Shown here: positions 13,227-29,948 of the stretch, in pieces | Layout: every line of letters starts with the position of its first letter | Numbering within the stretch: the first letter of the stretch is position 1 | Origin: Mucisphaera calidilacus | GTDB lineage: Bacteria > Planctomycetota > Phycisphaerae > Phycisphaerales > Phycisphaeraceae | Direction of reading: 5' to 3' | NCBI RefSeq assembly: GCF_007748075.1 | Contig: NZ_CP036280.1 | Location: 1,620,001-1,652,000 of the forward strand | DNA length: 32,000 nucleotides | The notes under the pieces: model-generated | Databases searched by the model: none | Told to the model about the DNA's origin: nothing | Seen by the model: the letters and a program-made list of their open reading frames with translations, nothing else | Made by a program: the position numbers and the translations under genes

Positions 13227-13312
13227 GTACGCGCACGGTTGACGGCAAGGGTCGCTGTGACAAGATAGCGCCCGGTCTGCCCCCGGAACACCCATCGATT
13301 GAAAGCAGAGCC

Positions 13313-14463: not shown

Positions 14464-15900
14464 ATGAGCACCACGACCTCGAAAGAGTCTGCCCCCGTGA
14501 TCTCCGAGGAGTACGAGCGCCAGCCCGTGCCCGCGTCGGCCCTCAAGGGGCCCGGCAAGTTCTGGGGCATGTACGCCGGCGAGCACGCGGCGGGCACCGA
14601 GTTCATGATCGGGCCTCTGTTTCTGGCCTGGGGCGTGGGGGCGCAGGACCTGATCCTCGGCCTGCTGCTCGGCAACCTGATGGCCGTGCTGAGCTGGCGT
14701 TACCTCTGCGCACCGATCGCGACCTCGGCACGCATGACGCTCTACTACCAGCTCGAGAAGATCGCCGGCGTCCGGCTGGTCACGCTCTACAACCTTGCCA
14801 ACGGTGTGCTGTTCTGCTTCCTGGCCGGTGCTATGATCACGGTCTCGGCCACAGCCGTGGGCATCCCCTTCAACATGGACATGCCCGCGTTCGGGCAGTT
14901 GATGCCCGACAGCGTGCTCTGGGTCGTGATCGTCGCCGTGGTCGGCATCGTGATCTCGCTCATCGCCGCGGCGGGCTACGACGTGGTGGCACGATTCGCC
15001 AATGCCGTCGCGCCGTGGATGGTGCTGGTCTTCCTTGCGTGCATCTTTCTGGCCCTGCCTCAGCTGGGCGTCGCCTCGCTGAGTGAGTTCTGGGACGCCG
15101 CCGGCGAACGCATATGGGTCGGCAAGGAAGACAATCGGTTTACCTTCTGGCACATCTTCTTCTTCGCCTGGTTCTGCAACGCTGCGATGCACGTCGGCAT
15201 GAGTGACCTGAGCGTGCTTCGGTACGCGAAGAAGCCGAGCTACGGCTGGGCGTCAGCGGCGGGCATGTACATCGGTCACTTCATGGCCTGGATCGCGGCG
15301 TCGCTGCTCTACGCCGTGCAGCTGTCCGAAGACCCCACCAACACAGCCGTCCTGCCCGGGCCGATGGCCTGGCAGGCCGCGGGACTGGCCGGTGTTGTCT
15401 GCGTGATCGTCGCCGGCTGGACCACCGCCAACCCCACGATCTACCGGGCCGGCCTGGCCTTTCAGGCGATCATGCCCAGACAGTCACGTTTCGTGGTCAC
15501 ACTGATCGCGGGGCTCGTGGCCACGGTCGCGGGCGTGTTCCCCGCTTTCGCGATGCGTCTGCTTGATTTCGTGGGAATCTACGGCACGATCCTGGCGCCG
15601 ATCGGAGCGGTGATCTTCGCCGACTGGTACCTGTCGAAGCGGCTTGGCATTCAGCCCTTCTACGCCGATCGCCAACGGGTCGGTATCAATCTGGCCGTCC
15701 TGCTGGCCTGGGCGATTCCCATCGGCGTCTCGATGTACATGATCTTCGGGCAGGGCATCTTTGCCTCGTTCTTCCCGCTCCCCTGCTGGATCGCGACGGG
15801 CCTGCTCTTCCTGCTCTTGAGTCGGGTCTTCAACCGGGGGCATGTCACGAACGATGAACCCGCACACGCTGCCGCTGACGGCGACCTTCCGAAGGAGTAA
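14464..15900 (+). CDS. NCS1 / purine-cytosine-permease-like (LeuT-fold) secondary transporter, substrate unknown
   Basis: GAGAGGA precedes the ATG. About 12 hydrophobic helices. N-terminal EEYERQPVPASA...W, mid SDLSVLRYAKKPS, GWTTANPTIYRAGLAFQAI and APIGAVIFADWYL resemble conserved NCS1/CodB segments. Confidence 0.6.
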   Translation: MSTTTSKESAPVISEEYERQPVPASALKGPGKFWGMYAGEHAAGTEFMIGPLFLAWGVGAQDLILGLLLGNLMAVLSWRYLCAPIATSARMTLYYQLEKIAGVRLVTLYNLANGVLFCFLAGAMITVSATAVGIPFNMDMPAFGQLMPDSVLWVVIVAVVGIVISLIAAAGYDVVARFANAVAPWMVLVFLACIFLALPQLGVASLSEFWDAAGERIWVGKEDNRFTFWHIFFFAWFCNAAMHVGMSDLSVLRYAKKPSYGWASAAGMYIGHFMAWIAASLLYAVQLSEDPTNTAVLPGPMAWQAAGLAGVVCVIVAGWTTANPTIYRAGLAFQAIMPRQSRFVVTLIAGLVATVAGVFPAFAMRLLDFVGIYGTILAPIGAVIFADWYLSKRLGIQPFYADRQRVGINLAVLLAWAIPIGVSMYMIFGQGIFASFFPLPCWIATGLLFLLLSRVFNRGHVTNDEPAHAAADGDLPKE

Positions 15901-16162: not shown

Positions 16163-17185
16163 TCATGAGAGCGTGACGGTTCGGCCCGTGCGAACACTCT
16201 CGACTTCTGCCTCGATCACCGTCAAAGAAGTCGCCGCGTCTTCAACCGTGACGACATCAGGCGTCCGGCCGTTGCGGATGCAATCGATGAAGTAGGCCAG
16301 CTCGTGCTGATAGCCCATGTTGGGGTCTAACTCGATCGCTTGGGTGTCGCCCCCTGCGTGGTGAAGCGTGAGTGGATGCTCCGCGGCGAGGTCGAAGACG
16401 GCCGTGGCCTTCTCGAAATTAACCGCGTACTGCATGGTGAACGGGAAGGATGACGCCATCGCCCAGCCGCCTTCGGCTGTGACCAGCGGGACGTCGTCGT
16501 AGTGATACTGCGTGGTGATGTGATCAACCGCGTCCGTGACGGTGCTGTAGCCACGGCTGGTCACGGCCGCCGGCACGCCGAAGCAGTATTGCACGAAGTC
16601 GGTGTCGTGGATGTGGAGGTCGAGTGCCGCTCCGCCACAGGCATCCCCGTTGAGGTAGAACGCTCCTCCGGGATGGGCGGCCACACGCCGGAACGTTGCA
16701 GCGTGCACCGAGCCGTAGGTCTTCTGGTCGACCGCCTGCTTGAGCCAGTCCCAGCCCGGCCAGAACCGCATGCACATGGCCACCATGGTCATGCCCGAGG
16801 CCCGACGGGCCGCAGCGACCAGTTGCTCGGCCTGATCGAGGGTGCGTGCGACCGGCTTCTCGATCAGAACATGCTTACCCGCTTCCATGGCCTGAACAGC
16901 GAATCGCAGGTGGGCGGGGGTCGGCAGGCAGATATCGACCACGTCCACCGCCCCCTCTTTGATGAGTGCCCCGGCGTCGCTGAAGCGTTCAACCTGTTCC
17001 AGGTCAAAACCGCCTTGCGCCTGCCCCTCGATATTGCCCCCCGCACGCTCCTTGCCGCTCAGCCGGTCGGGGTCGGCATCGGCGACCGCGGTGATCTCCA
17101 CCCCTTCCATCTGGCTGTAAACATCCAGGTGCGTGTTGCCCATCATGCCAAGGCCGCAGACGCCAACTCTGATCATCTCGAACAC
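16163..17185 (-). CDS. Gfo/Idh/MocA-family NAD(P)-dependent oxidoreductase (cytoplasmic)
   Basis: N-terminal Rossmann motif IRVGVCGLGMMGNTH and the family EKP motif (HVLIEKPVARTLDQAEQL). No signal peptide. Last gene of a minus-strand run. Confidence 0.9.
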   Translation of the reverse strand: MFEMIRVGVCGLGMMGNTHLDVYSQMEGVEITAVADADPDRLSGKERAGGNIEGQAQGGFDLEQVERFSDAGALIKEGAVDVVDICLPTPAHLRFAVQAMEAGKHVLIEKPVARTLDQAEQLVAAARRASGMTMVAMCMRFWPGWDWLKQAVDQKTYGSVHAATFRRVAAHPGGAFYLNGDACGGAALDLHIHDTDFVQYCFGVPAAVTSRGYSTVTDAVDHITTQYHYDDVPLVTAEGGWAMASSFPFTMQYAVNFEKATAVFDLAAEHPLTLHHAGGDTQAIELDPNMGYQHELAYFIDCIRNGRTPDVVTVEDAATSLTVIEAEVESVRTGRTVTLS

Positions 17186-17200: not shown

Positions 17201-18037
17201 TCACATCGAAAGGATACGGGACAACGCGGAAGCGGTGCGCTCCAGCAGGCCGTCGCTGTGCGGGATCATCTCCGCGACGATCGTTTGGCTGTAGCCGATG
17301 GCCCGAAGAGCGGCCATGGTCTCGGCCCAGGGCATGTCGCCATCGAGCAGATCACAGAAGCCATCGAGCGAACCGACGGATTGCTTGAAGTCCTTGACGT
17401 GCACCCGGCGTATGCGCTGTGCCAGCACCTCGATCCAGTGGGGCGGGTGCTGGTGATATCCGAGCAGATTGCCCGCGTCGAAGTAGACGCCAAGCCTCGG
17501 GTGATCAAAACCGTCCACGAACGAACACAGCTCCAGCGGCGAGTAGAACAGGCCGTTCCAGACGTTCTCGATCAGCAGGTCGACACCCGCCTCTTCGGCC
17601 ACCGGCAGCAGGCGTGATACCGCTTCGCGTGCACGCTCGACCGCGTGGTCGTATCGGATCAGGTCGGGGCTGATCGGGCTCTTGACGACACCGGGCACAA
17701 ACAGCAGCGCCTTGAGCCCCAGCGCTCCTGCGACACGCAGAGCACCCGAGTGCAGCTCGATGGCTTTCTCGCGCACCGATGCGTCGTCCGACGTCGGGTT
17801 GAACCCCCAACTCATGCCGCTGGCCAGCGTTTCTACGGTGAGGCTTGACCCCTCGATCTGCTGACGCAGCACCCGGCACTCTGCGTCCGTGAGATCGGGG
17901 CGAACCACGCCCTCGGGCCCGACACAGAGCTCCAGCGCCGAAAAGCCGGCCTCTTGTGCTTCCGCCAGGGCCTGATCGAGTGGATGGGTATTCTCAAGCC
18001 CCTGCTTGAGAGACCAGTAGCTGATGCCTGCGATCAC
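17201..18037 (-). CDS. Xylose-isomerase-like TIM-barrel protein (sugar phosphate isomerase/epimerase family)
   Basis: Family-typical segments: GFSALELC, LKALLFVPG, IENVWNGLFYSPLELCSFVD, VYFDAGNLLGY, VHVKDF, YSQTIVAEM. Only 15 nt from the downstream oxidoreductase gene. Confidence 0.8.
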   Translation of the reverse strand: MIAGISYWSLKQGLENTHPLDQALAEAQEAGFSALELCVGPEGVVRPDLTDAECRVLRQQIEGSSLTVETLASGMSWGFNPTSDDASVREKAIELHSGALRVAGALGLKALLFVPGVVKSPISPDLIRYDHAVERAREAVSRLLPVAEEAGVDLLIENVWNGLFYSPLELCSFVDGFDHPRLGVYFDAGNLLGYHQHPPHWIEVLAQRIRRVHVKDFKQSVGSLDGFCDLLDGDMPWAETMAALRAIGYSQTIVAEMIPHSDGLLERTASALSRILSM

Positions 18038-18106: not shown

Positions 18107-19114
18107 TCATCGCGACACCCCCGCGTGAGCAGAAATCGGGAGCTGCTGCGGGAACACCTCGTGCTCCAGGCTGCCGTCCCGGACGTAGCCGGTGATCTCA
18201 TCGAGGATCATCTGTCCCATCCGTGCGCACTCGCCGTCCATGGACCCTGCGATGTGAGGCGTGAGGAACACGTTCTCCAACGTGTAGAGCGTCGAGGACT
18301 CGTCCGGCGGCTCAGGATCAGTGACATCCAGATAGAAATCGAGGTCCTGTCGTTCCTGCGCCAGTCGCATCAGGGCGGGCTCGTCGATCAGCCCGCCACG
18401 GGCGGTGTTGATCAATGATGCGTTGGCGGGCAGCCTGCCCAGAAGATCGGCCCCGAACATGCCGCGTGTCTCATCGGTCAGGGGCGTGTGCAGCGACACG
18501 ACGTTCGACCGCGCAAACAGCGTCGGCAGGTCCACCGACTCAACCCCCAGATCCGCCATCACCTCCTGCTGCACGAACGGATCATGAACCAGCACCCGTA
18601 CGTCCAGGGATTTCAGCCGATCCAGAACCAGCCGCCCGATCGAACCGAGCGAGACCAGCCCCACGGTGGACTGATAGGCCCCGGGCATGTCGACGCGGAC
18701 TCTCTTGCGGGCAAGGCGGTAAGTCTCCCGATGGCGGAGCACCCGTTTCAACGCGTAAATGATCGTGGCAAACGTGAACTCGGCAACGGGCACCGCGTTG
18801 GCGTCGGTCGCAGTGGTGATGCGGATGCCGCGTTCCCAGATGTCCGGCGTCACAAACGGGGCGATCGATCCCGCGCCGTGACAGATCAGCCTCAGCGACG
18901 GGAACTGATCGAGCCTCTCCGGCCCGAGCCGTGGCAGCCCCCAGGTGCTGAGGATCACTTCGACGTCCCGGTGCACCACGCCCGGCGCAAACGCCTCCGC
19001 GGTCGGGAGCGGGTCGCTGCTCATCGGCATCAGATCGCTGATCTGTTCCCTGATGTGGTCTGGATAAACTTGTCCGGCAAACGGCTCATCGACGACGAAG
19101 CATCCTGTGGTCAT
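18107..19114 (-). CDS. D-isomer-specific 2-hydroxyacid dehydrogenase family protein (NAD-binding)
   Basis: VGLVSLGSIGRLVLDRL (GxGxxG), LINTARGGLIDEPAL (Arg), DVTDPEPP (Glu) and TPHIAGS (His). Its start overlaps the upstream stop in ATGA at 19111-19114. Confidence 0.85.
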   Translation of the reverse strand: MTTGCFVVDEPFAGQVYPDHIREQISDLMPMSSDPLPTAEAFAPGVVHRDVEVILSTWGLPRLGPERLDQFPSLRLICHGAGSIAPFVTPDIWERGIRITTATDANAVPVAEFTFATIIYALKRVLRHRETYRLARKRVRVDMPGAYQSTVGLVSLGSIGRLVLDRLKSLDVRVLVHDPFVQQEVMADLGVESVDLPTLFARSNVVSLHTPLTDETRGMFGADLLGRLPANASLINTARGGLIDEPALMRLAQERQDLDFYLDVTDPEPPDESSTLYTLENVFLTPHIAGSMDGECARMGQMILDEITGYVRDGSLEHEVFPQQLPISAHAGVSR

Positions 19115-19518
19115 GCAATGGCTCTCACACGTCGGGGGGATAGCAGAGAAGCCAACACCATAACTGATCCCAAAGCCGGTTCGGGCACCGACCGTGTGTT
19201 GCCGAAGTTCGCGGCCAGGACACTCAGGTCGAGTAGATCCACCGCGGCATCGGCGTTGATGTCGCCGGTGGAATAACGCACGTCACTGCTGCTGCCGAAG
19301 GAAGAGGCCAGCGTGCTCAGATCGAGAAGATCGACGCGTCCGTCGAGATTCAGGTCGCCAAGAAACGTGTTGAGGTAGTCCGCGCCCATAATCAGGAGGA
19401 GCAGGTCATTGAGATCGGCGTCCTGATCCTCGTCGAGGTCGTACTCCGGATTGCCCAGATTCATCGCGAGCAGGTCCACGTCCTCCACGGACAGGACACC
19501 GTCATCGTTGAAATCGCC
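19111..19518 (-). other. C-terminal module: 4 dockerin-like EF-hand loops plus a PEP-CTERM sorting signal (copy 1)
   Basis: GDFNDDGVLSVEDVDLL, YDLDEDQDADLNDLLLL, GDLNLDGRVDLLDLSTL and GDINADAAVDLLDLSVL, followed by VPEP, a hydrophobic helix and RRVR. Confidence 0.75.
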
Positions 19519-20901
19519 CGGCACCTTCGGAGCCTTGAGCAGCCGCAGGACGACCGTCTCGTAGGCGTCCAGCTCGAAGGAGAGGTTCGTTCCGTCATAG
19601 CCGATGAACTGAGAGCCGAAGGAACTCGGCGCGAGGTTCCATGTGACGCCGTCCAGACTCGACATCCCGGCGAGCCAGATGTCGCCATGGAGCATCGACA
19701 CCTGTATATATTCCGACCAGTCCGTGCTCAGGTCGGCCCCGACGAGATCGGTCCAGCCCACAAGACTCGCTTCCTGCCAGCCCCCCGGGTTGGTGATTCC
19801 GATGTAGTCGGCGTCCTCGTCGGAGCGTGTCCAGACCTGGAGGTCCACCTCATCGTCGGTAAAGTTTCGTTGGACCGGATCGACCACCGTTGTGACGACC
19901 AGTGACTCCGCAGCCTCTTCCATCACCAGAACATCGGACAGAGCCTGAACCTCAGCGCCCACGTCAATGAAGTTCTGCCACTGGTTCGGCGAATCGTTCA
20001 CCATGTCCCACCTCGAGCGTGGCGCCCAGTAGAAACTCGAGAAACCGGCTCCCGCGGCCACCGACAGGTGGAACTGTGCACGCAGCTGGTCGTAAGTTGG
20101 CAGGATATTCTCGGCGGTCAGGGGGATCGGGTTGTTCTGCGGGTAGAACGTGCGCAGGTCGTGGCCCTGCAGCACCGAGCCGATCGTCGTCGTCGGCACG
20201 ATGGCTTCCGCGGCCGCGAAGTCCGTGTAGATCGGGACCAGATCCTCACTGGTCGGCCCGGTGGAGGGGATCGGGTAACGGTCGATAAAGACCGCGTCCG
20301 TGTGTGCCCACATGTCCGAGGCAGGGTAGGCACTGCGTGACGCGTGCTTGGGGCCATCGACGATGACCGCGGGATGATCCGAATCGGCCGACTTGATGGC
20401 CTGGTAGGCGGTTGCCATGTGCTGCGGCGAGATCTCGTCTGTTCTGAGCAACGGCTCGTCCATGATGATCCAGAAACGCAGCGCCGGCTTGTTCTTCAAG
20501 GCACTCACCGCGGTCTGGATGGCCGATGCGTTCTGGCTGTAGACCGCCTCGCGCGGCAGGCCGAGCATCACGCCCACACCCGCCTGATGGGCCAGGTCGA
20601 GATAGGTGGAGGCATCGTCGATCCAGTCCTCGATGCGTTTGCCCGACGAGACCAGGTTCCAGCTGAGGCTCTCGAAGTAGTAGTCGTGCGTGACGTTGAA
20701 CCCGGCTTCGACAACGCCGCCAAACTCGGTCCAGTCGTCCGAGGGATCCCGGAAGGTGCCGTAGAGAAAGGTTCGCTCACCGTCGACCACGGGCATACCG
20801 TCGTCGTCGAAGTAAACCTCCACCGCGGCCGCTTCGCTGATCATCAGCAGAACGGCGGTGATGATGATGCAACCCATTCCGAACACAACTCTGAAGGGCA
20901 T
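19111..20901 (-). CDS. Secreted DEP-motif hydrolase-like protein with a beta-sandwich, four dockerin-like Ca-loops and a PEP-CTERM anchor
   Basis: AGGAGA 6 nt upstream of the ATG, with a signal peptide. It aligns by eye with 20949-22625 (FLYGTFRD/FVVGSFRS, GFNVTHDY/GVSWVHDY, PALRFWIIMDEP/PALWFWYLYDEP, DAVFIDRYPI/DAMWPDRYPI, VLQGHD/VLQLHD, GAGFSSFYWAP/GARGFSYYWAP). DEP codons at 20452-20460. C-terminal VPEPALGSVMVLASLLSPRRVRAIA. Confidence 0.75.
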   Translation of the reverse strand: MPFRVVFGMGCIIITAVLLMISEAAAVEVYFDDDGMPVVDGERTFLYGTFRDPSDDWTEFGGVVEAGFNVTHDYYFESLSWNLVSSGKRIEDWIDDASTYLDLAHQAGVGVMLGLPREAVYSQNASAIQTAVSALKNKPALRFWIIMDEPLLRTDEISPQHMATAYQAIKSADSDHPAVIVDGPKHASRSAYPASDMWAHTDAVFIDRYPIPSTGPTSEDLVPIYTDFAAAEAIVPTTTIGSVLQGHDLRTFYPQNNPIPLTAENILPTYDQLRAQFHLSVAAGAGFSSFYWAPRSRWDMVNDSPNQWQNFIDVGAEVQALSDVLVMEEAAESLVVTTVVDPVQRNFTDDEVDLQVWTRSDEDADYIGITNPGGWQEASLVGWTDLVGADLSTDWSEYIQVSMLHGDIWLAGMSSLDGVTWNLAPSSFGSQFIGYDGTNLSFELDAYETVVLRLLKAPKVPGDFNDDGVLSVEDVDLLAMNLGNPEYDLDEDQDADLNDLLLLIMGADYLNTFLGDLNLDGRVDLLDLSTLASSFGSSSDVRYSTGDINADAAVDLLDLSVLAANFGNTRSVPEPALGSVMVLASLLSPRRVRAIA

Positions 20902-20948
20902 CGCGTTTCTCCTGTGGAATCATCCGTCCGCGTCCGGTTACTTCCGAC

Positions 20949-22625
20949 TTACTCGCTCGACGACCAGGGGGCCTTCACAATGATGACGCCCGACGGCCCA
21001 AGGACCAGTCGGTTTCCGTTCAATCGGCTGCCGGCGTACGCGCTGTGGACACTCCAGTCGCTCACACCACGGACCACGGGAAGCGTGACCTCAACCGAGT
21101 TGTAGACGTCGGTGTTGACCGCGGCGATATACAGGTGCGCGTCATGGACGCGTGACCACTGCATCGTCTTGCCGCCCGCGGGCTGCTGCAGCGAGACGTC
21201 AACGTCCGGCTCGTCCGCGAGCACGATCGGTTCGAGGTCCCTGAACTCGTGAACGACCCGGGTGAAGTGCTTCCAGTGCTGGGGCGCATCCTTCTCGAGC
21301 GAGTACCAGTAGGTGGGTGCCCAGTAGTAAGAGAAGCCACGCGCCCCGCCGACCAGCGCCAGGTGCCCCATGGCGCGGACCTCGTCCGCCGTCGGGCGAT
21401 GGTCGGCATCAGAGGGCATGGCGAGTTCCGGGTTGGACTTGCGCAGCCAGGGGATGCTCCTGTTGTCGTGCAGCTGCAGCACCGGTGCGATCGGCTGGTC
21501 CGGGCCGATCAGCTGACGCACCCGCTGGATGTCCGAGTAGACCGGCGTCGTGGTGACCATCTCCCGCCCCGTCGCGGTAATGGGGTAGCGGTCGGGCCAC
21601 ATGGCGTCCGTGAACGGGTGATAGACGGCATTCGTCTCTTCGAGGTGACAGACCAGGACAACCGGGTGGTTCGGGTCCATCCGCTTGATCGTTTTGTAGG
21701 TCTTGGAGATCGAGGTCACCGGGACGTGCTGAGGCTTGGGCTCGTCGTAGAGATACCAGAACCACAGCGCCGGCTCGTCGGACAATTCGCTCACCCACCG
21801 GGCGACAAACGCCTCGTCCGCATCGACCACTGCCGGACGTGGGATGCTCATCGCGACGCCGAGACCGAGTTCGTGCGCACGGCGGAGGTAGGCACGAGCT
21901 TGCTCAAGAAACGCCTCGAACCCCATTTTCTCAAGATCGCGCACGCGCCCGTTCTTGTAGTCGTGCACCCAGGAGACCCCCGCGGCCTGCGCCGTTGGCA
22001 ACGCGTCGATGTGACGATCCGTCTGCCCGCTCCGGAAAGATCCGACGACAAACAACGGCTTGCCATCAACAATCAGTTCGCCTTGTGATCCATAAGCCAC
22101 AGGCGTCGGGTCCGGCTGATAGTTGGCCCAGAAGGAGAAGCTCAACAGTTCATCGGCTTTGCCCGGCTTGTCGGGATGCCTGTACTGGAACTCGATGATG
22201 TTGAAACCTCGACGAAGCTCGCGGTCCGGGCGAAGCGTCAGCCGCGTCCCCAGGACTGACCACGCATCAGGCGGCAGCGCCTCGCCATTGAGGAGGAATC
22301 CCTCGACCTCGATCTCCTTACGGGCGACCGCGGCGAGATCCAGATAGAAGGGGCCGTGAGGCGATGTCGTGAAGCCCGGTTCCATGTCGACACGCGGCAT
22401 CAGTGAGAAGGCCTTGTGGCGTTCATGACGCTGCGCCGCATAGGTGTCCGCCCCCGGCAGACCGAGCTTCTCGCTGAGCAGCAGCTTCACTTCCGGTTCC
22501 GGCGTCGCCTGGATGCGCGGGTCCTCTTGCTCGGGCGCGGCGGGGTTGGCCGGCTGGGCGACCACTGGGCAGATCGCGGCAAAGAGACAGACGAAAAGCG
22601 GGATGACAACCGGGTTTCGGAGCAT
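20949..22625 (-). CDS. Secreted DEP-motif hydrolase-like protein (paralogue of 19111-20901) with an extra ~180-aa N-terminal domain
   Basis: Signal peptide MLRNPVVIPLFVCLFAAICPVVA/QP. DEP codons at 21738-21746. Paralogy motifs are listed under 19111-20901. It ends in a beta-sandwich-like segment (..LVLGPSGVIIVKAP). Confidence 0.7.
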   Translation of the reverse strand: MLRNPVVIPLFVCLFAAICPVVAQPANPAAPEQEDPRIQATPEPEVKLLLSEKLGLPGADTYAAQRHERHKAFSLMPRVDMEPGFTTSPHGPFYLDLAAVARKEIEVEGFLLNGEALPPDAWSVLGTRLTLRPDRELRRGFNIIEFQYRHPDKPGKADELLSFSFWANYQPDPTPVAYGSQGELIVDGKPLFVVGSFRSGQTDRHIDALPTAQAAGVSWVHDYKNGRVRDLEKMGFEAFLEQARAYLRRAHELGLGVAMSIPRPAVVDADEAFVARWVSELSDEPALWFWYLYDEPKPQHVPVTSISKTYKTIKRMDPNHPVVLVCHLEETNAVYHPFTDAMWPDRYPITATGREMVTTTPVYSDIQRVRQLIGPDQPIAPVLQLHDNRSIPWLRKSNPELAMPSDADHRPTADEVRAMGHLALVGGARGFSYYWAPTYWYSLEKDAPQHWKHFTRVVHEFRDLEPIVLADEPDVDVSLQQPAGGKTMQWSRVHDAHLYIAAVNTDVYNSVEVTLPVVRGVSDWSVHSAYAGSRLNGNRLVLGPSGVIIVKAPWSSSE

Positions 22626-22690
22626 TGAAGTGTCCTGAAAAAGGAAGGTAGGGCTGGGATCAGAAAGTAACGAACGGCGTCCGGCGGGGA

Positions 22691-23485
22691 TCAGAGGCCC
22701 GGGTCCGAGGGATCCGTCGCCTGGTATTTGTATTCATATCCACTGGCGCTACGCGAGTAGGCCGCCTGATCGTTGTTAACCTCAGCGATGTACTCTTCAT
22801 TGACCGAACCCGCGTGACCGTCAGCAAAAGCGGCGTTCGCCGATCCGCCGTGACGCAACGCCAAGCGGTTCTCGTTGTTGGTGCCCCCCTGCGGACGAAT
22901 CGTGTACCACGACAAGCCGCGCGGGTCATCGTCCAGGGCGGGACTACGCATGGAATCTGAGAAGACAAAGAACTCGCTCGCTTCCATGATGGCGTCGAGT
23001 TTGCGGTAATTCTCCCTGACCTGTGCGTTCGCAAAGTTCTCCCCGGACTCGACCCACTGCCGCATGCCGTAGACGTGCTGCCAGAAGTTGTCGGGGCGGA
23101 GCGACATCGCCTCCTGACTGCTTTCGGGGGTGGCCGAGGGGCAGTAGAAGACGCCTGACTCGGCGACGTTCTGCCCGCCGCCCACGAGTTGCTGATCCCC
23201 GACGTAGCCGTTGAGCGCGAGCTTGAAAGGCCAGAAGCGCTTGGTGAGGTTGGCTTCGTTATTCTCGACGCCTCGGTTAATCACGTGCCCCGGGATGAGG
23301 TAGTTGTTGTCGACCGCGTAGGCCACCATGCCCAGAGCGAGTTGCTTCTGATTGCCGGCGCAGATGCTCGCGCGGGCCGCGTTCCTGGCCGCCCCGAGGG
23401 CCGGCAGGAGGATCCCGATCAACAATGCGATGATGGAGATGACGACGAGGAGTTCGATCAGTGTGAACGCGGTGCGGTGTCTCAT
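22691..23485 (-). CDS. Prepilin-type N-terminal cleavage/methylation protein of the DUF1559 / H-X9-DG class (pseudopilin-like)
   Basis: N-terminus [37 protein letters not shown] is a class-III signal with a methylation site. The C-terminal [13 protein letters not shown] fits H-X9-DG exactly. Confidence 0.9.
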
Positions 23486-23519
23486 GGATAGCTGCCTTGC
23501 TGGAGAGGGTGCACGGAGA

Positions 23520-23553
23520 TTAAAACCGATCGTCGCTTCTCAGCGGCGATCGG
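23520..23553 (-). terminator. Intrinsic terminator downstream of the 23570-24739 gene
   Basis: On the minus strand: CCGATCGCCGC-TGAGAA-GCGACGATCGG, an 11-bp stem with one G-U pair (stem arms at plus-strand 23526-23536 and 23543-23553). It is followed by TTTTAAT and starts 17 nt after the TAA stop. Confidence 0.6.
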
Positions 23554-23569
23554 CGTTGGGTACGAAGCG

Positions 23570-23962
23570 TTAGGCCGTTCGTCGGCGGCCCGCGATGGCC
23601 GCGAGCGCCAGCAGGGACAGGCCCGCCGGTTCCGGGACCGCGTTGGAGCTGCCGAAACCGTTGGCGAGGATGCTGAGGTCAAGCAGGTCAACGACGCCGT
23701 CGCCGTTGAAGCTGCCGCCCTCCCAGCCGGCGGCGTTGTTGAAGTTGCTCGCGAGCGAGGACAGGTCGAGGAGGTCAACCTGCTTATCGAGGTTGGCGTC
23801 GCCGAAGAACGTGTCGAGGAAGTCCGGGTCGGTCACCAGCATGATGACGTCATCGGCATCAGAAACGAGGTCACCGTTGAGGTCGTAGGCCGGGTCGCCC
23901 AGGTTGGCGTAGAGCAGGTCGATGTCCTCGGCGTCGAGATCGCCGCTGCCGTTGAAGTCGCC
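23570..23962 (-). other. C-terminal module: 4 dockerin-like EF-hand loops plus a PEP-CTERM sorting signal (copy 2)
   Basis: GDFNGSGDLDAEDIDLL, YDLNGDLVSDADDVIML, GDANLDKQVDLLDLSSL and GSFNGDGVVDLLDLSIL, followed by VPEP, a hydrophobic helix and RRR. It is collinear with copy 1 at 19111-19518. Confidence 0.75.
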
Positions 23963-24739
23963 GGGCAGGCCCGCTTCGACGGCATCACCCGTCACCGTGA
24001 TGTCATCCCAGGTGAAGTCCCGACCGCCGGAAGTATTCGCCTTCCCGATCAGCGCCACGCCGCCGGGTTCGGGGATGGCCTGCCCGCTTGTGAAGGGGAT
24101 GCTGACCGCGGTCTGCTTGAGAATGAAGTCATTGGTGCGGAAGTTCGCCAGCAGGTCGATGGTTTCATCGATCGGGTCGGTGGTCACCGAGAAGTTGATC
24201 TCGACCGTCTCACCGGCATCGAGCGTCGAGGTAAAGCTCTGCGAGGTCTGGAGCGGCTGAATCCCTCCGCCGTTCGGGAGGATGCGGATCAGCTGAATGC
24301 CGGCCTGGTTGTCATTGCTGCCCTGCCCGCCCTGGATGCGGAAGCCGTACATCTCGCCGTCACTCTGCACACGGGCACCCATGCCCCACCAGAGCGAGGA
24401 GAAGAGATCCGACCAGTTGCCCGAGCCCATGGTGGCGGTGATGCTGTAATCCAGCCACTGCGCACTGCCGATGCCCTCGTCGGAGGCACCGGTGTAAGCG
24501 GACGTCTGAATGCCCGCCCCGCCGGCCGCGAGTTGCGCGGCCTGACTGCCGTTGTGCCAAGCCGGCGTGAGGACATCGAAATCGCCGTTCAACTCACCCC
24601 AGCCCGAGGGCATGGCATCGCTCGGAGCGACCACCGACGAAAAGTCTTCGGTGAAGGTGAAGCTCTCGGCACCGGCGTGAGCGGCCAGAGCAGCCATGAG
24701 CGTGCAGGCGAGAAAGGTTTGCGTTGCGTGATCAGCCAT
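23570..24739 (-). CDS. Secreted lectin/jelly-roll-like protein with four dockerin-like loops and a PEP-CTERM anchor
   Basis: Start chosen at 24739 (MADHATQTFLACTLMAALAAHAGA/ES signal) because AGGAGG lies 6 nt upstream. The N-terminal ~250 aa are paralogous to 24817-25641. C-terminus VPEPAGLSLLALAAIAGRRRTA. Confidence 0.75.
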   Translation of the reverse strand: MADHATQTFLACTLMAALAAHAGAESFTFTEDFSSVVAPSDAMPSGWGELNGDFDVLTPAWHNGSQAAQLAAGGAGIQTSAYTGASDEGIGSAQWLDYSITATMGSGNWSDLFSSLWWGMGARVQSDGEMYGFRIQGGQGSNDNQAGIQLIRILPNGGGIQPLQTSQSFTSTLDAGETVEINFSVTTDPIDETIDLLANFRTNDFILKQTAVSIPFTSGQAIPEPGGVALIGKANTSGGRDFTWDDITVTGDAVEAGLPGDFNGSGDLDAEDIDLLYANLGDPAYDLNGDLVSDADDVIMLVTDPDFLDTFFGDANLDKQVDLLDLSSLASNFNNAAGWEGGSFNGDGVVDLLDLSILANGFGSSNAVPEPAGLSLLALAAIAGRRRTA

Positions 24740-24773
24740 CGTGTACCTCCTGTTGTGTGACAAAGCGTAAAGC

Positions 24774-24801
24774 GTCTCCCCGACCCGACAGCCGGGGAGA
24801 C
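24774..24801 (-). terminator. GC-rich hairpin between the tandem PEP-CTERM paralogues (candidate partial terminator or stabiliser)
   Basis: Perfect 9-bp inverted repeat GTCTCCCCG (24774-24782) / CGGGGAGAC (24793-24801) with a 10-nt loop. On the minus strand it is followed by GCTTTACGCTTTG, a weak T-rich tail. It lies between the stop at 24817 and the start at 24739. Confidence 0.4.
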
Positions 24802-24816
24802 GGGACGGTTGAAAGA

Positions 24817-25641
24817 TCACCCACGACGCCCGGCGACACCCGCGAGACCCAGCAGGGCCAGAGCGAGTGCAGAGGGCTCGGGAACGGGCACGGCCAGGCC
24901 GTTGACAACAATGTCATCCCACGAGGGGCCACGGTTGGCCGAGTTCGCCACAAAGCCCAGAGGCCCCGGCGTCGCGATGACGGTGCTGTTCGAATAATCC
25001 ACGCTGCGCGAGAGACTCTTGGTGACACCGTTGTTCGTAACCATGGTCACCGCAAGATCGACTTCGCTGTTGATGTCGTCGTTGGAGACGCTGAATTCGA
25101 TGTCGACCGTTTCGCCCGAGTCGATCGTGCTCGTGCTACTGCTGGTGCCGAGGGTGGCAATCCCGCCTGTCGACGTCACCCGGATCAGCTGGATCACGGT
25201 GTTCGTGACGCCGTTCGAGGTGATGCGGAAGCCGTAGGCCGAGCCATCGTCCTGAACGCGTGCGAGCATGCCCCACCAGATCGAGGTGCTCTCGGACCAG
25301 GTGTCGGTCCCGAGGCTGGCGCTGAAGCCGTAGTTCAGCCAGTTCGCCGCGGGTGACATGCCCGGATCGGTCGACAAGCCGTTGTAGGTCGCCACCTCGA
25401 TACCGCTGGCCGAACCCACGAGCTTGGCAGCGTTGGTGTTGCCGTGCTTCGCCTCAAGGCTGATGTCAAAGTCGCCGTTGGCCTCGACCCAGCCGGCCGG
25501 CAGCAGATCGCCCACGGGCGTGCCGTCGAAGTTCTCGGAATACGAGAAGCCGACCAGATCGGCCTGCACGGCCGATGAAGCCGTTGTCAGGACAACGCCA
25601 GCTACCAGTGCGTTCGTTAGAGTCAATCCATTCTTAAACAT
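24817..25641 (-). CDS. Secreted lectin/jelly-roll-like PEP-CTERM protein (short paralogue without dockerin loops)
   Basis: GAGGAG precedes the ATG. Signal peptide ...VVLTTASSAVQA/DL. It aligns with 23570-24739 (FSYSENFDG/FTFTEDFSS, GWVEANGDFDI/GWGELNGDFDV, IWWGMLARVQDDGSAYGFRI/LWWGMGARVQSDGEMYGFRI, VIQLIRV/GIQLIRI, GETVDIEFSV/GETVEINFSV). C-terminus VPVPEPSALALALLGLAGVAGRRG. Confidence 0.75.
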   Translation of the reverse strand: MFKNGLTLTNALVAGVVLTTASSAVQADLVGFSYSENFDGTPVGDLLPAGWVEANGDFDISLEAKHGNTNAAKLVGSASGIEVATYNGLSTDPGMSPAANWLNYGFSASLGTDTWSESTSIWWGMLARVQDDGSAYGFRITSNGVTNTVIQLIRVTSTGGIATLGTSSSTSTIDSGETVDIEFSVSNDDINSEVDLAVTMVTNNGVTKSLSRSVDYSNSTVIATPGPLGFVANSANRGPSWDDIVVNGLAVPVPEPSALALALLGLAGVAGRRG

Positions 25642-25865: not shown

Positions 25866-25915
25866 GTGACACGTCAGGCTTAATTGGAGTATACTGAATA
25901 CCTATTCATGGTCAA
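25866..25915. promoter_or_regulatory. Candidate face-to-face divergent sigma70-like promoters sharing a palindromic -10
   Basis: Plus strand: GTGACA (25866-25871), N18, TATACT (25890-25895). Minus strand: TTGACC (complement of 25910-25915), N16, TATACT (complement of 25888-25893). The two -10 hexamers overlap in the palindrome AGTATACT (25888-25895). They lie in the most AT-rich intergenic region of the window. Confidence 0.35.
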
Positions 25916-26028: not shown

Positions 26029-27111
26029 ATGCAGAAACAACGCGACAGACTCGAACAGCTCTTTGAGGGTTTGTACCAATGGCTGGGACGCCTCTATGTG
26101 CCTGACCAACATGGATTTGTCTATCAGCTCAGCAGCCTCGAGAATCCCGAGCGATTCTCGCCGGATCTCGAATCCACCGCTCAGGCGCTCATCATCCTGC
26201 ACCGATCCGGGCTGACAGAGCATCTGCCCGACGAGACCCGCCTTGGCGTCGCGGAATTTTTTAACCGCCACCAGCACCCCGACGGCTATTTCCGGGCACC
26301 GGGCGGACCTGACCACAACACCGATCGCATGCTCGGTCGCTACCTCAGCTACGCCACGGGCGTCCTGGACAGCCTTGGCGTCGAGCCCCGCTACCCCCTG
26401 CCCCGCCAACTCCGGGGCGAGGGGCAGGACAGGCTGCCCCTCGACGAGAACGCCTTACGCGCCTGGGTCGATCAACGCTCGTGGGACAATCCTTGGCGAG
26501 CCATCGATGAGATCTCAGCACGGGCACAGATCATCAGCGTCCTGCCCGAGCCTGCACGGACCGACGCGGGCAACATCCTGCTGGACTGTCTTGACGCTAT
26601 GCAGAACCCCGGGGACGGCCTCTGGGGTGGCGGTGAACCCTATGTGAGGGTCTCGGGAGGCTTCAAGGCATCGCTGGTCTACCGGAACCGGCGACCGATG
26701 CCCCGTCCGGAACGAATCTACGACACCACGATGAACTGCCTGCGTCAGCAACGCGCCAACCGGGTCACGTGGGTCTCCAATCTCCTGAACCTGATCCTCT
26801 CGGTCCGCCCCCATCTCGATCATAAGATCCCCGCCCGGGACCGCGAGGACCTCGTGCGGATCAGCATCGACAATCTCTCGACCTGTCGGCGAGAGGACGG
26901 CGGATTCTCCATCGAGAGCAAGGGCTCGTGGCCTGCGCCCAACGACGGGATCGTTCTCGGACACGGACGCGTCGAGGGCGACATGAACTCCGCGGCACTG
27001 GCGCTCCAGGTCTGGTTCAACCTCCTCGATCTCATGGGGCTGGAGCCGCGCCCGCCGGCCTCGGCAGAAGGATTCAGAGCGGCCATGCCCGAGCGTCTGA
27101 CCGCCCGATGA
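26029..27111 (+). CDS. Cytoplasmic hypothetical protein with prenyltransferase/terpene-cyclase-like alpha/alpha-toroid repeats
   Basis: No signal peptide. Recurrent repeat-like motifs: HPDGYFRAPGG, NPGDGLWGGGEPY, REDGGFSIESKG. Its stop (27109-27111) directly precedes the lyase gene. The fold call is weak. Confidence 0.4.
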   Translation: MQKQRDRLEQLFEGLYQWLGRLYVPDQHGFVYQLSSLENPERFSPDLESTAQALIILHRSGLTEHLPDETRLGVAEFFNRHQHPDGYFRAPGGPDHNTDRMLGRYLSYATGVLDSLGVEPRYPLPRQLRGEGQDRLPLDENALRAWVDQRSWDNPWRAIDEISARAQIISVLPEPARTDAGNILLDCLDAMQNPGDGLWGGGEPYVRVSGGFKASLVYRNRRPMPRPERIYDTTMNCLRQQRANRVTWVSNLLNLILSVRPHLDHKIPARDREDLVRISIDNLSTCRREDGGFSIESKGSWPAPNDGIVLGHGRVEGDMNSAALALQVWFNLLDLMGLEPRPPASAEGFRAAMPERLTAR

Positions 27112-27151
27112 CGTGACCCCGCGCTCACACCGAAAGGTAAAGGTCGTCCGC

Positions 27152-29945: not shown

Positions 29946-29948
29946 CCC

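What the first reader, a model, noticed from the sequence alone, without database searches (positions are those of the whole stretch)
19111..25641. Candidate cell-surface glycan capture and degradation system: lectin-like PEP-CTERM pair, H-X9-DG pseudopilin and DEP-motif hydrolase-like pair
Five consecutive minus-strand genes encode only exported proteins of undefined function. They are two tandem jelly-roll/lectin-like PEP-CTERM proteins, one pseudopilin, and two paralogous hydrolase-like proteins. One lectin-like protein and one hydrolase-like protein carry the same dockerin-like plus PEP-CTERM tail. The run then continues, via the ATGA overlap at 19111-19114, into the three cytoplasmic enzyme genes down to 16163. 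The arrangement suggests binders and enzymes anchored by an exosortase-dependent tail and possibly assembled through Ca-dependent dockerin-like contacts, with a pilus-like component. That would be a cellulosome-like or fibre-associated system that has not been described in PVC bacteria, as far as I know. No cohesin-like partner, exosortase or pilus-assembly genes lie in this window, so the model rests on the arrangement alone.
Basis: inference. Interest (0 to 1): 0.7.

Follow-up and report, generated by a model that had tools for sequence, protein, structure and literature searches.

The report
Repressor-controlled glycan capture and degradation operon
A marine planctomycete (Mucisphaera calidilacus) carries a probably repressor-controlled operon for two surface-anchored sugar-binding proteins, its own pilin-like protein and two unusual glycosidase-like enzymes, which looks like this phylum's way of catching and cutting a polysaccharide, not a cellulosome.

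Summary
Five consecutive minus-strand genes (19111-25641) encode exported proteins. They are two paralogous lectin-like PEP-CTERM proteins, one DUF1559/H-X9-DG pseudopilin, and two paralogous DEP-motif TIM-barrel proteins. Two of them share a dockerin-like plus PEP-CTERM tail. An ATGA overlap leads into three cytoplasmic sugar-enzyme genes.

The broad reading (glycan capture and degradation) is supported by new evidence:
- The cassette of LacI regulator, lectin-like PEP-CTERM protein, pseudopilin and a 360-aa protein recurs in three related metagenome contigs, with G4/G5-like genes nearby.
- A 14-bp palindrome, TGAAT-N4-ATTCA, occurs once in the window, inside the promoter spacer upstream of G1. 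It also precedes the LacI, G1-like and G5-like genes in those three contigs only.
- The lectin-like domain is homologous to a domain fused to the TIM barrel in other family members.
- The enzymes model as clan GH-A barrels (nearest family GH158), but Gln replaces the canonical nucleophile Glu.

The cellulosome-like reading is not supported:
- The window holds no cohesin.
- Orthologues keep PEP-CTERM but lack the dockerin-like module.
- The same tail sits on unrelated proteins elsewhere in Planctomycetota.

The presence of an exosortase could not be tested. The substrate and the pseudopilin's role remain inferred. I rate this a new variant of a known kind, of moderate-to-high interest.

The parts
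25888..25915 (-). Sigma70-like promoter: TTGACC, 16-nt spacer, TATACT. The spacer is filled by the palindrome TGAATAGGTATTCA (25895-25908), a candidate LacI-family operator. The intergenic region is shared with the divergent gene at 26029.
   Evidence: Promoter scan and sequence. The palindrome occurs once in the 32 kb window against 0.01 expected. The same palindrome occurs 6 times in L001, L005 and L006 against 0.002 expected, and 0 times in 218 kb of other loci.
24817..25641 (-). G1: signal peptide, ConA-like (lectin/CBM-like) domain, PEP-CTERM.
   Evidence: The RBS AGGAG is seen.
23570..24739 (-). G2: paralogue of G1 with an inserted dockerin-like module (three F-hand loops, about 23639-23971) before the PEP-CTERM (23573-23638). 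The likely start is Met at 24739; an alternative GTG start lies at 24820.
22691..23485 (-). G3: DUF1559/H-X9-DG type IV pilin-like protein (pseudopilin). It has Ala rather than Gly at position -1 of the prepilin cleavage site.
20949..22625 (-). G4: signal peptide, N-terminal beta domain, DEP-motif clan GH-A-like TIM barrel, C-terminal beta sandwich. It has no anchor.
   Evidence: (49-58% identity to a gene in L005).
19111..20901 (-). G5: signal peptide, DEP-motif clan GH-A-like TIM barrel (about 19912-20829), Ig-like beta sandwich (about 19537-19911), dockerin-like module (about 19189-19527), PEP-CTERM (19114-19188).
18107..19114 (-). D-isomer-specific 2-hydroxyacid dehydrogenase (cytoplasmic). 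Its start overlaps the G5 stop (ATGA).
17201..18037 (-). Xylose-isomerase-like TIM-barrel sugar isomerase/epimerase (cytoplasmic). It is 54% identical to a gene in L005.
16163..17185 (-). Gfo/Idh/MocA sugar oxidoreductase (cytoplasmic), the last gene of the co-directional run.
26029..27111 (+). 360-aa protein with no signal peptide and a weak prenyltransferase-like alpha/alpha-toroid hit. In L005 and L006 its orthologues (49-53% identity) follow the pseudopilin directly. Here it is divergently transcribed from the operator-containing region, followed by genes for a heparinase II/III-like protein, a xylose-isomerase-like TIM-barrel protein and a GH29 fucosidase.

Best explanation
This is a substrate-inducible polysaccharide-utilisation operon of a PVC-specific type. 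I propose that it works as follows.

1. Regulation. A LacI-family repressor encoded outside the window binds TGAATAGGTATTCA in the spacer of the promoter upstream of G1. An oligosaccharide inducer releases it (inferred).
2. Transcription. One transcript covers G1-G2-G3-G4-G5 and the three cytoplasmic enzyme genes. This is inferred from gaps of 15-84 bp between genes and one ATGA overlap.
3. Export and anchoring. G1, G2 and G5 are exported by Sec. Their PEP-CTERM helix holds them in the membrane until an exosortase processes them and leaves them attached at the cell surface or matrix (inferred from what is known of the family).
4. Capture. G1 and G2 are stand-alone carbohydrate-binding modules. 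The same domain is fused to the catalytic barrel in other family members.
5. Pilin step. G3 is a cluster-specific pilin. It would be assembled by the cell's type II secretion or type IV pilus machinery. It would then either present or retract the captured glycan ('fishing rod'), or act as a cargo-specific adaptor for secreting G1, G2, G4 and G5. The strict G1-G3 adjacency argues that the two interact physically (inferred).
6. Cleavage. G5 (anchored) and G4 (soluble) cleave the glycan. Both are clan GH-A-derived barrels that keep the acid/base Glu. They have Asp before it, and Gln in place of the nucleophile Glu. Their chemistry is therefore not the classical double displacement. One possibility is substrate-assisted catalysis.
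7. Catabolism. The products are imported and converted by the 2-hydroxyacid dehydrogenase, the isomerase/epimerase and the Gfo/Idh/MocA oxidoreductase.

The dockerin-like module is a lineage-specific Ca-binding spacer placed before the anchor. It is not a cohesin ligand.
For: - Gene content and paralogy.
- Synteny. The order LacI, G1-like (39-46% identity), G3-like (35-38%) and 360-aa protein (49-53%) holds in L005 and L006, and as far as the contig end in L001. G5-like or G4-like genes lie in the same loci.
- Regulon. The palindrome sits in the promoter spacer, once in the window against 0.01 expected. The same palindrome lies upstream of LacI, G1-like and G5-like genes only in L001, L005 and L006, with 6 sites against 0.002 expected. 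Their LacI proteins are orthologous, at 47-49% identity.
- Domain fusion. hhalign of the G1/G2 family against the C-terminal domains of P0005, P0006, P0014, P0018 and P0023 gives probability 95.9% and E 6.4e-9.
- Enzyme fold. The G5 model has pLDDT 89 and shows a TIM barrel plus a beta sandwich. Foldseek returns GH35, GH140, GH2, GH164, GH158 and GH39. The family profile hits GH158 at E 3.5e-14 with DEP aligned to NES.
- Pseudopilins are a regular part of such clusters. L002 and L024 run LacI, pilin, GH-like. L025 runs LacI, two pilins, GH-like. L027 runs GH-like, pilin, GH29, SASA, GH20.
- A pseudopilin protein was over-expressed on alginate in a verrucomicrobium, whose alginate-induced cluster also holds a pulG-like pseudopilin gene (PMC13274419).
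- The window is a CAZyme island with GH88, GH78, a GH145-like protein, a heparinase II/III-like protein, GH29, DUF5722 and GxGYxYP.
Against: - No regulator, exosortase, secretin or pilus-assembly gene, or outer-membrane transporter was found among the 20 large window ORFs scanned. The rest of the genome could not be searched.
- The G1 fold model is weak (pLDDT 58).
- G4 and G5 have Gln at the canonical nucleophile position, as do 79% of the 155 family representatives examined. They could therefore be non-catalytic.
- G3 has Ala, not Gly, at position -1 of the prepilin site. Cleavage and assembly into a fibre are therefore uncertain.
- Only three related loci carry the full cassette, and two metagenome scans found no more.
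- No expression or biochemical data exist for this locus.
Confidence: 0.62

Rival explanations
1. Cellulosome-like assembly. The dockerin-like modules of G2 and G5 would dock, Ca-dependently, onto a cohesin-bearing scaffold or fibre, building a multi-enzyme surface complex.
For: - Both tails contain paired F-hand loops that match dockerins of solved cohesin-dockerin complexes (E 4e-4 to 3e-3; Pfam Dockerin_1 at 20.5 and 14.3 bits).
- One binder and one enzyme carry the same tail, at 50% identity.
Against: - The Pfam scores are below the cutoff of 22.9.
- No cohesin lies in the window.
- Orthologues of G1 and G5 have PEP-CTERM without the module, so the conserved system works without it.
- The same dockerin plus PEP-CTERM tail sits on unrelated N-terminal domains in other Planctomycetota. 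That pattern fits a generic spacer or anchor module.
Confidence: 0.07
2. Matrix remodelling rather than nutrition. The PEP-CTERM proteins would be components of the organism's own exopolysaccharide matrix, and G4 and G5 would trim or recycle that self-made polymer.
For: - PEP-CTERM/exosortase systems are phylogenetically tied to exopolysaccharide production (PMC1569441).
- The strain grows as a viscous colloid (abstract of PMC8882080).
Against: - A LacI-type operator, three cytoplasmic sugar-catabolic enzymes translationally coupled to G5, and flanking exo-glycosidases and lyases all fit catabolism.
- The 20 large window ORFs scanned include no glycosyltransferase or polysaccharide-export gene.
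- Haft et al. noted that most PEP-CTERM genes are single-gene units, unlike this operon.
Confidence: 0.12
3. G4 and G5 are non-catalytic glycan-binding pseudo-enzymes, and G3 is an uncleaved, inner-membrane-anchored periplasmic binding protein. The locus would then be a binding and uptake relay without its own depolymerase.
For: - Gln replaces the nucleophile Glu in both proteins and in 79% of 155 representatives.
- G3 has Ala at position -1. Cluster pseudopilins in other loci have Asn, Arg or Ser there.
- The Pfam identifier for DUF1559 is SBP_bac_10.
Against: - Asp148, Glu149, Asp173, His176, Asp202, Asp207 and Tyr209 are 84-97% conserved across the family. That pattern is typical of an active site, not of a decayed one.
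- The family is large, with 9065 cluster representatives at E <= 1e-3. Its members carry CBM4_9 or LamG modules, as real enzymes do.
Confidence: 0.13
4. Chance neighbourhood. DUF1559 pseudopilins are among the largest planctomycetal gene families, so G3 would merely sit between unrelated exported-protein genes.
For: DUF1559 is one of the largest families in the phylum (PMC4807772). One verrucomicrobial genome holds 67 paralogues.
Against: - The G1-like and G3-like genes are adjacent in 4 of 4 loci that hold a G1 homologue, and the G3 orthologues are specific (35-38% identity across the globular part).
- A pseudopilin lies next to the regulator or the GH-like gene in 4 of the 6 loci reached through GH-like proteins (L002, L024, L025, L027). 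In a fifth, L001, the G3-like pseudopilin lies one gene from the LacI.
- No pseudopilin occurs in the 17 tail-selected loci.
Confidence: 0.04

Closest known systems
Bacteroidota polysaccharide utilisation loci (Sus-like systems with surface glycan-binding proteins and surface endo-glycanases)
   Same: The logic is the same. One substrate-specific, regulator-controlled locus encodes surface-anchored glycan binders, a surface enzyme, a second soluble enzyme and downstream sugar catabolism. The nearest solved enzyme family, GH158, was itself found in such a locus (PMC7157763, listed).
   Different: - There is no SusC/SusD pair or TonB-dependent transporter in the window.
- Anchoring is by PEP-CTERM rather than a lipid tail.
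- A pilin-like protein is a conserved component.
- The regulator is of LacI type with a TGAAT-N4-ATTCA operator.
PEP-CTERM/exosortase protein sorting (Haft et al. 2006, PMC1569441)
   Same: G1, G2 and G5 have a signal peptide and a C-terminal PEP motif, hydrophobic helix and basic cluster. The phylum is known to carry the system.
   Different: These PEP-CTERM genes sit in a catabolic operon with enzymes and a pilin, not in single-gene units next to EPS genes. Two of them carry a dockerin-like spacer. The presence of an exosortase was not tested.
Cellulosomal type I dockerins
   Same: They share duplicated F-hand Ca-binding loops with Asp/Asn at loop positions 1, 3, 5, 9 and 12. There are weak sequence matches to dockerins of solved complexes.
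   Different: - The Pfam scores are below threshold.
- A third F-hand precedes the pair.
- The module is followed by a membrane anchor.
- No cohesin was found.
- The module is absent from orthologues and is present on unrelated planctomycetal proteins.
[quoted passage not shown]
   Same: Both have a (beta/alpha)8 barrel plus a C-terminal Ig-like domain. The acid/base Glu at the end of strand 4 aligns (DEP against NES). The Tyr-Trp at strand 8 is conserved.
   Different: - Asp replaces the Asn before the acid/base.
- Gln replaces the nucleophile Glu at strand 7.
- Asp-x-Tyr sits at strand 6, where I recall His-x-Tyr in GH5 (not checked here).
- There is no Pfam or NCBIfam model.
- The activity is unknown.
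DUF1559 / H-X9-DG prepilin-type proteins of PVC bacteria, and GspG or type IV pilins
   Same: The N-terminal FTLIELLVV helix matches type IV pilins and GspG. The DUF1559 and H-X9-DG motifs are present. A pulG-like pseudopilin gene lies inside an alginate-induced verrucomicrobial cluster, and a pseudopilin protein was over-expressed on alginate (PMC13274419).
   Different: Here the pilin is strictly paired with a PEP-CTERM lectin-like protein under a shared operator. Position -1 is Ala. The globular domain has no solved relative. No function has been shown for any member of the family.
Planctomycetal 'fishing-rod' pili hypothesis (Boedeker et al. 2017, as cited in PMC8882080 and PMC12078418)
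   Same: It proposes pilin-like proteins that bind whole polysaccharides for uptake into the periplasm.
   Different: To my knowledge no genes have been assigned to that hypothesis. This cassette would supply candidate substrate-specific components.

Membership tests
PEP-CTERM/exosortase substrates | C-terminal PEP motif, then a hydrophobic helix, then a basic cluster at the extreme C-terminus | tested here: met
   G1 scores 24.1 bits on PF07589, above the 20.7 cutoff. G2 scores 16.3, below the cutoff. All three tails match the pattern VPEP + 8-25 residues + R[RK] (Arg, then Arg or Lys) + stop.
PEP-CTERM/exosortase substrates | N-terminal signal peptide | tested here: met
   By inspection of the translations. 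Orthologues P0157 and L001_271 have the same leader. No predictor was run.
PEP-CTERM/exosortase substrates | Exosortase (EpsH/Xrt) encoded in the same genome | not testable with these tools
   None was found among the 20 large window ORFs scanned. The rest of CP036280 could not be searched. The only hint is that the strain has an N-acyl amino acid synthase, a gene type linked to exosortase systems.
Type I dockerin / cellulosome | Duplicated 22-residue F-hand Ca-binding segment recognised by the Dockerin_1 model | tested here: inconclusive
   G5 scores 20.5 bits and G2 scores 14.3 bits against a cutoff of 22.9. PDB dockerins match at E 4e-4 to 0.013. The loops GDLNLDGRVDLLD and GDINADAAVDLLD are visible.
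Type I dockerin / cellulosome | Cohesin-bearing partner or scaffoldin | tested here: not met
   No Cohesin hit in the 20 large window ORFs scanned or in the called genes of the related loci. A genome-wide search was not possible.
Type I dockerin / cellulosome | The module is conserved as part of the enzyme system | tested here: not met
   P0002 (50% identical to G5), P0157, P0158 and L001_271 end in PEP-CTERM without the module.
DUF1559 / H-X9-DG pseudopilin | Prepilin-type N-terminal methylation motif plus DUF1559 region | tested here: met
   N_methyl scores 27.9 against 21.2. SBP_bac_10 scores 31.4 against 23.3. This holds for G3 and all three orthologues.
DUF1559 / H-X9-DG pseudopilin | C-terminal H-X9-DG motif | tested here: met
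   TIGR04294 scores 17.1 bits against a cutoff of 19. The motif [12 protein letters not shown] is present and aligns in all ten cluster pseudopilins compared.
Type IV pilin / T2SS pseudopilin | Gly at position -1 of the prepilin peptidase site | tested here: not met
   G3 reads MRHRTA|FTLIE, with Ala. Orthologues have Gly (L001_267, L005) or Ala (L006). Other cluster pilins have Asn, Arg or Ser.
Type IV pilin / T2SS pseudopilin | Assembly machinery (secretin, ATPase, platform protein, prepilin peptidase) | not testable with these tools
   None was found among the 20 large window ORFs scanned.
Clan GH-A / GH158 | (beta/alpha)8 barrel with a C-terminal Ig-like domain | tested here: met
   AlphaFold model with pLDDT 89 and pTM 0.90. 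Foldseek gives GH-A families at E 1e-12 to 1e-8. The architecture of GH158(Pro) is as described in PMC13195107.
Clan GH-A / GH158 | Acid/base Glu at the end of strand 4 | tested here: met
   Glu149 is 97% conserved. It aligns with the Glu of the NES motif of GH158 and of the NEP motif of GH2.
Clan GH-A / GH158 | Nucleophile Glu at the end of strand 7, and Asn before the acid/base | tested here: not met
   Position 245 is Gln in G4, in G5 and in 79% of 155 representatives; Glu occurs in 5%. Position 148 is Asp in 97%.
Bacteroidota-type PUL | Adjacent SusC-like TonB-dependent transporter and SusD-like protein | tested here: not met
   No such Pfam or NCBIfam hit in the window ORFs scanned.
ConA-like lectin / carbohydrate-binding module | Beta-jelly-roll fold | tested here: inconclusive
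   The model is all-beta but has pLDDT 58 and pTM 0.64. The top Foldseek hits are legume lectins and PL7 lyases, at E 3e-5 and TM about 0.48.
ConA-like lectin / carbohydrate-binding module | Occurs as an accessory module fused to catalytic domains | tested here: met
   hhalign gives probability 95.9% and E 6.4e-9 to the C-terminal domains of five GH-like proteins. BLASTP of G1 against P0005 gives E 2e-4.
LacI-family regulon | Palindromic operator at the promoter, conserved with orthologous regulators | tested here: met
LacI-family regulon | Regulator gene present | tested here: not met
   tblastn of seven LacI proteins against the window found nothing. The regulator must lie elsewhere in the genome, if it exists at all.

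The most novel reading that the evidence does not exclude
The conserved cassette would be the substrate-recognition head of the planctomycetal 'fishing-rod' glycan-uptake apparatus. It consists of a LacI operator, a PEP-CTERM-anchored CBM-like protein and a dedicated H-X9-DG pilin. That would give the hugely expanded DUF1559 family its first function, as substrate-specific pilins paired with surface lectins in a role analogous to SusD or SGBP. In addition, the DEP/Gln barrels would form a new, large glycoside hydrolase family (at least 9000 clusters at 50% identity) derived from clan GH-A. This family would have abandoned the Glu nucleophile, for example in favour of substrate-assisted catalysis through the Asp-Glu pair.
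Probability: 0.2. Interest if true: 0.8.

Novelty: new variant of a known kind. Interest (0 to 1): 0.58.

Why it matters
How Planctomycetota and their relatives capture and import polysaccharides is unresolved. They lack SusC/D systems. Pili are only hypothesised to act as 'fishing rods'. DUF1559/H-X9-DG pilin-like proteins, one of the largest gene families of the phylum, have no known function.

This locus offers a compact, regulator-defined and cultivable test case in strain Pan265. One operator controls one pilin, its strictly paired surface lectin, and two enzymes. The locus also points to a very large family of clan GH-A-derived barrels with no Pfam or NCBIfam model and an altered catalytic centre. 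That family is a candidate new CAZyme family relevant to marine glycan turnover.

Tried and rejected
- The look-up of encoding contigs had no record of G5 itself, so the genome beyond the window could not be read.
- A word-index search with G1 alone returned only G1. The search with the G1/G2 alignment found just two further homologues.
- Metagenome scans with the G1 family (A3) and the 360-aa protein family (A5) found nothing.
The number of such tails in this genome is therefore unknown.
- An HMM built from G1 and G2 alone did not detect the fused domains in P0005 and its relatives. Profile-profile comparison did.
- L001_286, a second PEP-CTERM protein next to a second pseudopilin, is not detectably homologous to G1 outside the tail.
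- Considered and rejected:
  - G1/G2 as PL7-like lyases. They have no invariant His, and only the fold resembles PL7.
  - G4/G5 as members of GH158, GH42 or GH35, because the nucleophile test failed.
  - G3 as a Verru_Chthon cassette protein, because only the N-terminal helix matches.
- Terminator-like sites inside the run are no more frequent than in shuffles (4 against 6.2). They give no evidence for or against sub-operons.
- Rfam found nothing in the window.
- The substrate could not be assigned. Flanking genes point to a polymer containing rhamnose, uronic acid and fucose (GH78, GH145-like, GH88, heparinase-like lyase, GH29). The Asp-Glu pair would instead suggest a HexNAc substrate. These two hints do not agree.

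Full report
**Observation.** G1 and G2 are paralogues, with 41% identity over 235 aa (E 1e-44). G4 and G5 are paralogues, with 32% over 314 aa (E 7e-40). G2 and G5 end in the same 133-aa tail at 50% identity (E 4e-32). Pfam and NCBIfam give the following:
- PEP-CTERM for G1: 24.1 bits against a cutoff of 20.7.
- PEP-CTERM for G2: 16.3 bits, below the cutoff.
- N_methyl and DUF1559 for G3: both above their cutoffs.
- H-X9-DG for G3: just below its cutoff.
- Dockerin_1 for G5 and G2: 20.5 and 14.3 bits against a cutoff of 22.9.
- G4: no hit at all.

The ATGA overlap between the G5 stop and the next start is real. Two corrections follow. G2 probably starts at Met28 (24739), which gives a normal signal peptide and matches the 389-aa NCBI protein. 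G1 starts at 25641, behind an AGGAG box; the 250-aa database version lacks the signal peptide. A 100% match (P0001) identifies the source as Mucisphaera calidilacus, strain Pan265, class Phycisphaerae.

**Context.** The whole window is a carbohydrate-degradation island. It encodes:
- a GxGYxYP protein;
- GH88;
- GH78 rhamnosidase;
- DUF5722;
- a BNR_4 protein close to the GH145 rhamnosidase BT3686 (615 bits against a cutoff of 700);
- a heparinase II/III-like lyase;
- a second xylose-isomerase-like barrel;
- GH29 fucosidase.

Downstream of G5 lie genes for a 2-hydroxyacid dehydrogenase, a sugar isomerase/epimerase barrel and a Gfo/Idh/MocA oxidoreductase. The gaps between genes in the run are 15-84 bp.

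**The hydrolase-like pair.**
- The word-index search found only 11 relatives. An exhaustive profile search found 9065 cluster representatives at E <= 1e-3 and 863 at E <= 1e-30. The family is therefore large, but none of the 22 members scanned matched a Pfam model for the barrel.
- The AlphaFold model of the G5 catalytic region is confident (pLDDT 89, pTM 0.90). It shows a (beta/alpha)8 barrel followed by a beta sandwich.
- Foldseek returns clan GH-A enzymes: GH35, GH140, GH2, GH164, GH158 and GH39, at E 1e-12 to 1e-8.
- The family profile hits GH158 at E 3.5e-14, with DEP aligned to NES. GH158 has the same barrel plus Ig-like architecture, with Glu143 as acid/base and Glu229 as nucleophile (PMC13195107).
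- Across 155 representatives the conservation is W144 97%, D148 97%, E149 97%, D173 95%, H176 84%, D202 95%, D207 85% and Y209 95%.
- The residue at the end of strand 7, where clan GH-A places its nucleophile, is Gln in 79% and Glu in 5%. It is Gln in both G4 and G5.
- The pair is therefore GH-A-derived but fails the GH-A and GH158 membership test on the nucleophile.
- An Asp-Glu pair at strand 4 without a strand-7 nucleophile resembles the substrate-assisted hexosaminidases (GH20 type). That comparison comes from my own knowledge and is a hypothesis, not a result.

**The lectin-like pair.**
- The family is tiny. It comprises G1, G2, two metagenome proteins (P0157, P0158) and one more gene found in L001.
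- The model is weak (pLDDT 58) and all-beta. Its best structural matches are legume lectins and PL7 lyases, at E 3e-5 and TM about 0.48.
- The stronger evidence is a domain fusion. Profile-profile comparison shows the G1/G2 domain is homologous to the C-terminal domain fused to the GH-like barrel in P0005, P0006, P0014, P0018 and P0023 (probability 95.9%, E 6.4e-9).
- G1 and G2 therefore behave as detached, anchor-bearing accessory modules of this enzyme family.

**The pseudopilin.**
- G3 and its orthologues pass the N_methyl and DUF1559 models and carry RH-X9-DG.
- Only the N-terminal helix matches solved type IV pilins and GspG.
- Position -1 of the cleavage site is Ala in G3. Among the ten cluster pseudopilins compared it is Gly (four), Ala (three), Asn, Arg or Ser. 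That is unexpected for substrates of a prepilin peptidase.

**Synteny and regulon.**
- Three high-GC metagenome contigs carry the same order. L005 and L006 have LacI, G1-like (39-46% identity across the three contigs), G3-like (35-38%) and an orthologue of window gene 26029-27111 (49-53%). L001 has the same order up to its end.
- Each contig also holds a G5-like or G4-like gene: P0002 at 50% to G5, a region of L005 at 49-58% to G4, and a gene in L006 at 33% to G5.
- In the window the 360-aa gene is instead divergent from G1.
- The only sigma70-like promoter on the G1 strand in this intergenic region is TTGACC, 16 nt, TATACT. Its spacer is filled by the palindrome TGAATAGGTATTCA.
- TGAAT-N4-ATTCA occurs once in 32 kb against 0.01 expected.
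- It occurs six times in L001, L005 and L006 against 0.002 expected. Those sites lie upstream of the LacI genes, the G1-like gene of L006 and the G5-like genes of L001 and L006. It never occurs in 218 kb of other loci.
- The three LacI proteins are mutual orthologues at 47-49% identity, against 20-29% to the other LacI proteins. None is encoded in the window.
- This is good evidence that binder, pilin and enzyme genes form one regulon.

**Generality.** More distant members of the GH-like family sit in operons of the same style:
- L002 and L024: LacI, pseudopilin, GH-like.
- L025 (P0008, which NCBI names as Armatimonadota): LacI, two pseudopilins, GH-like, a PcRGLX_1st-domain protein.
- L027: GH-like, pseudopilin, GH29, SASA, GH20.
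- L003, with three tandem GH-like genes, has no pseudopilin.
- The 17 loci selected only by the tail contain no pseudopilin.
- A 2026 paper reports a pulG-like pseudopilin inside an alginate-induced cluster of a verrucomicrobium, a pseudopilin among the alginate-induced proteins, and 67 paralogues in that genome (PMC13274419).

**The tail.**
- The module has three F-hand loops before the PEP-CTERM and weakly matches dockerins.
- Orthologues of G1 and G5 lack the module but keep PEP-CTERM.
- Dockerin_1 plus PEP-CTERM tails, 30-42% identical over the whole tail, occur in Pirellulales and Planctomycetales MAGs. There they sit on an amidase, on lamin-tail-domain repeats and on unknown domains.
- No cohesin was seen. 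The module is best read as a lineage-specific Ca-binding spacer in front of the anchor. It is not evidence for a cellulosome.

**Mechanism.** This is my best-supported reading, and the inferred steps are marked as such in the Best explanation section.
- A LacI-type repressor would hold the divergent promoters until an inducer appears.
- The operon then supplies anchored binders (G1, G2), a cluster-specific pilin (G3), an anchored enzyme (G5), a soluble enzyme (G4) and three cytoplasmic enzymes.
- Whether G3 forms a glycan-binding fibre, adapts the secretion machinery to these cargoes, or stays in the inner membrane as a binding protein cannot be decided here.
- Exosortase, secretin, pilus-assembly genes and the regulator lie outside the window and could not be searched.

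**Comparison and novelty.**
- Functionally the locus works like a Bacteroidota PUL (surface binders, a surface enzyme and a regulator). It lacks SusC/D, uses PEP-CTERM anchors and includes a pilin.
- It is not a cellulosome, and its enzymes are not GH158 members.
- My literature searches found no description of the pairing of a PEP-CTERM CBM-like protein with an H-X9-DG pilin under one operator, nor of the Gln-for-Glu barrel family.
- The general ideas of pilin involvement and PVC glycan clusters do exist.
- I therefore rate it a new variant of a known kind, with interest about 0.58.

**Limits.**
- Only three related loci carry the full cassette.
- The G1 fold model is weak.
- There are no expression or biochemical data.
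- The substrate is unassigned.
- Two fold libraries were unavailable.

Noticed in passing
window 4789-4802: A one-mismatch copy of the operator palindrome (TGAAGTGTGATTCA) lies in the 61-bp gap directly upstream of the GH88 gene start (4765, minus strand). With one mismatch allowed, 0.24 sites are expected by chance in the window, so this is only a hint that GH88 belongs to the same regulon.
   Followed up: partly
window 26029-31337 (+): A divergent unit shares the operator-bearing intergenic region. It comprises the 360-aa toroid-like protein, a heparinase II/III-like lyase with a signal peptide, a second xylose-isomerase-like barrel and GH29 fucosidase, with the genes adjacent or overlapping. 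The functional locus is probably larger than the five genes reported.
   Followed up: partly
window 25569-25641 and 24740-24820: There are database start-site problems. The NCBI G1 protein (P0012, 250 aa) starts 24 codons too late and loses the signal peptide; the ATG at 25641 has an AGGAG box. The longest G2 ORF (GTG at 24820) is probably 27 codons too long.
   Followed up: yes
L001 1806-3566 (-): A second pair is unrelated in sequence: a 286-aa PEP-CTERM protein immediately upstream of another DUF1559 pseudopilin (268 aa). The protein is not homologous to G1 outside the tail. 'PEP-CTERM exoprotein plus H-X9-DG pilin' may therefore be a general two-gene cassette.
   Followed up: partly
G3 (window 23465-23470) and the pseudopilins of L001, L002, L005, L006, L024, L025, L027: The residue before the FTLIELL helix is Gly in only 4 of 10 cluster pseudopilins. 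The others have Ala (three), Asn, Arg or Ser. This is unusual for prepilin-peptidase substrates and remains unexplained.
   Followed up: no
L001 4183-8067 and L006 1-3210: An AraC regulator gene plus ferredoxin, ferredoxin reductase and cytochrome P450 genes are conserved next to the cassette in two related contigs but are absent from the window. From memory, such P450 trios demethylate methylated algal sugars; this was not checked.
   Followed up: no
L005 12695-16048: The G4 orthologue (49-58% identity) is split over two reading frames inside a gene called as a 1117-aa LamG/GH31 protein. The contig name carries a '4x' tag, which I take to mean low coverage. This is probably a frameshift error rather than a real fusion.
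   Followed up: partly
window 10503-13226 (+) and 13046-14374 (+): The BNR_4 protein matches the GH145 rhamnosidase BT3686 model in two stretches, the best at residues 500-904. Its N-terminal region of about 500 aa is unassigned. The next ORF (weak VanY hit) overlaps it by 180 bp as listed, so its true start is probably later.
   Followed up: no
P0005, P0013, P0014 (GH-like family): A small clade of the family has Glu (VPE[ST]GD) where G4, G5 and 79% of members have Gln, while keeping the Asp-Glu pair. These members also carry the fused G1-like domain. The clade is a natural comparison set for the catalytic question.
   Followed up: partly
window 14464-15900 (+): A 478-aa multi-pass membrane protein converges on the end of the operon. 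It has no Pfam hit and only a weak match to cytosine permease (NCS1-type; 41.9 bits against a cutoff of 326). It is a possible importer for the locus, but this is unproven.
   Followed up: no
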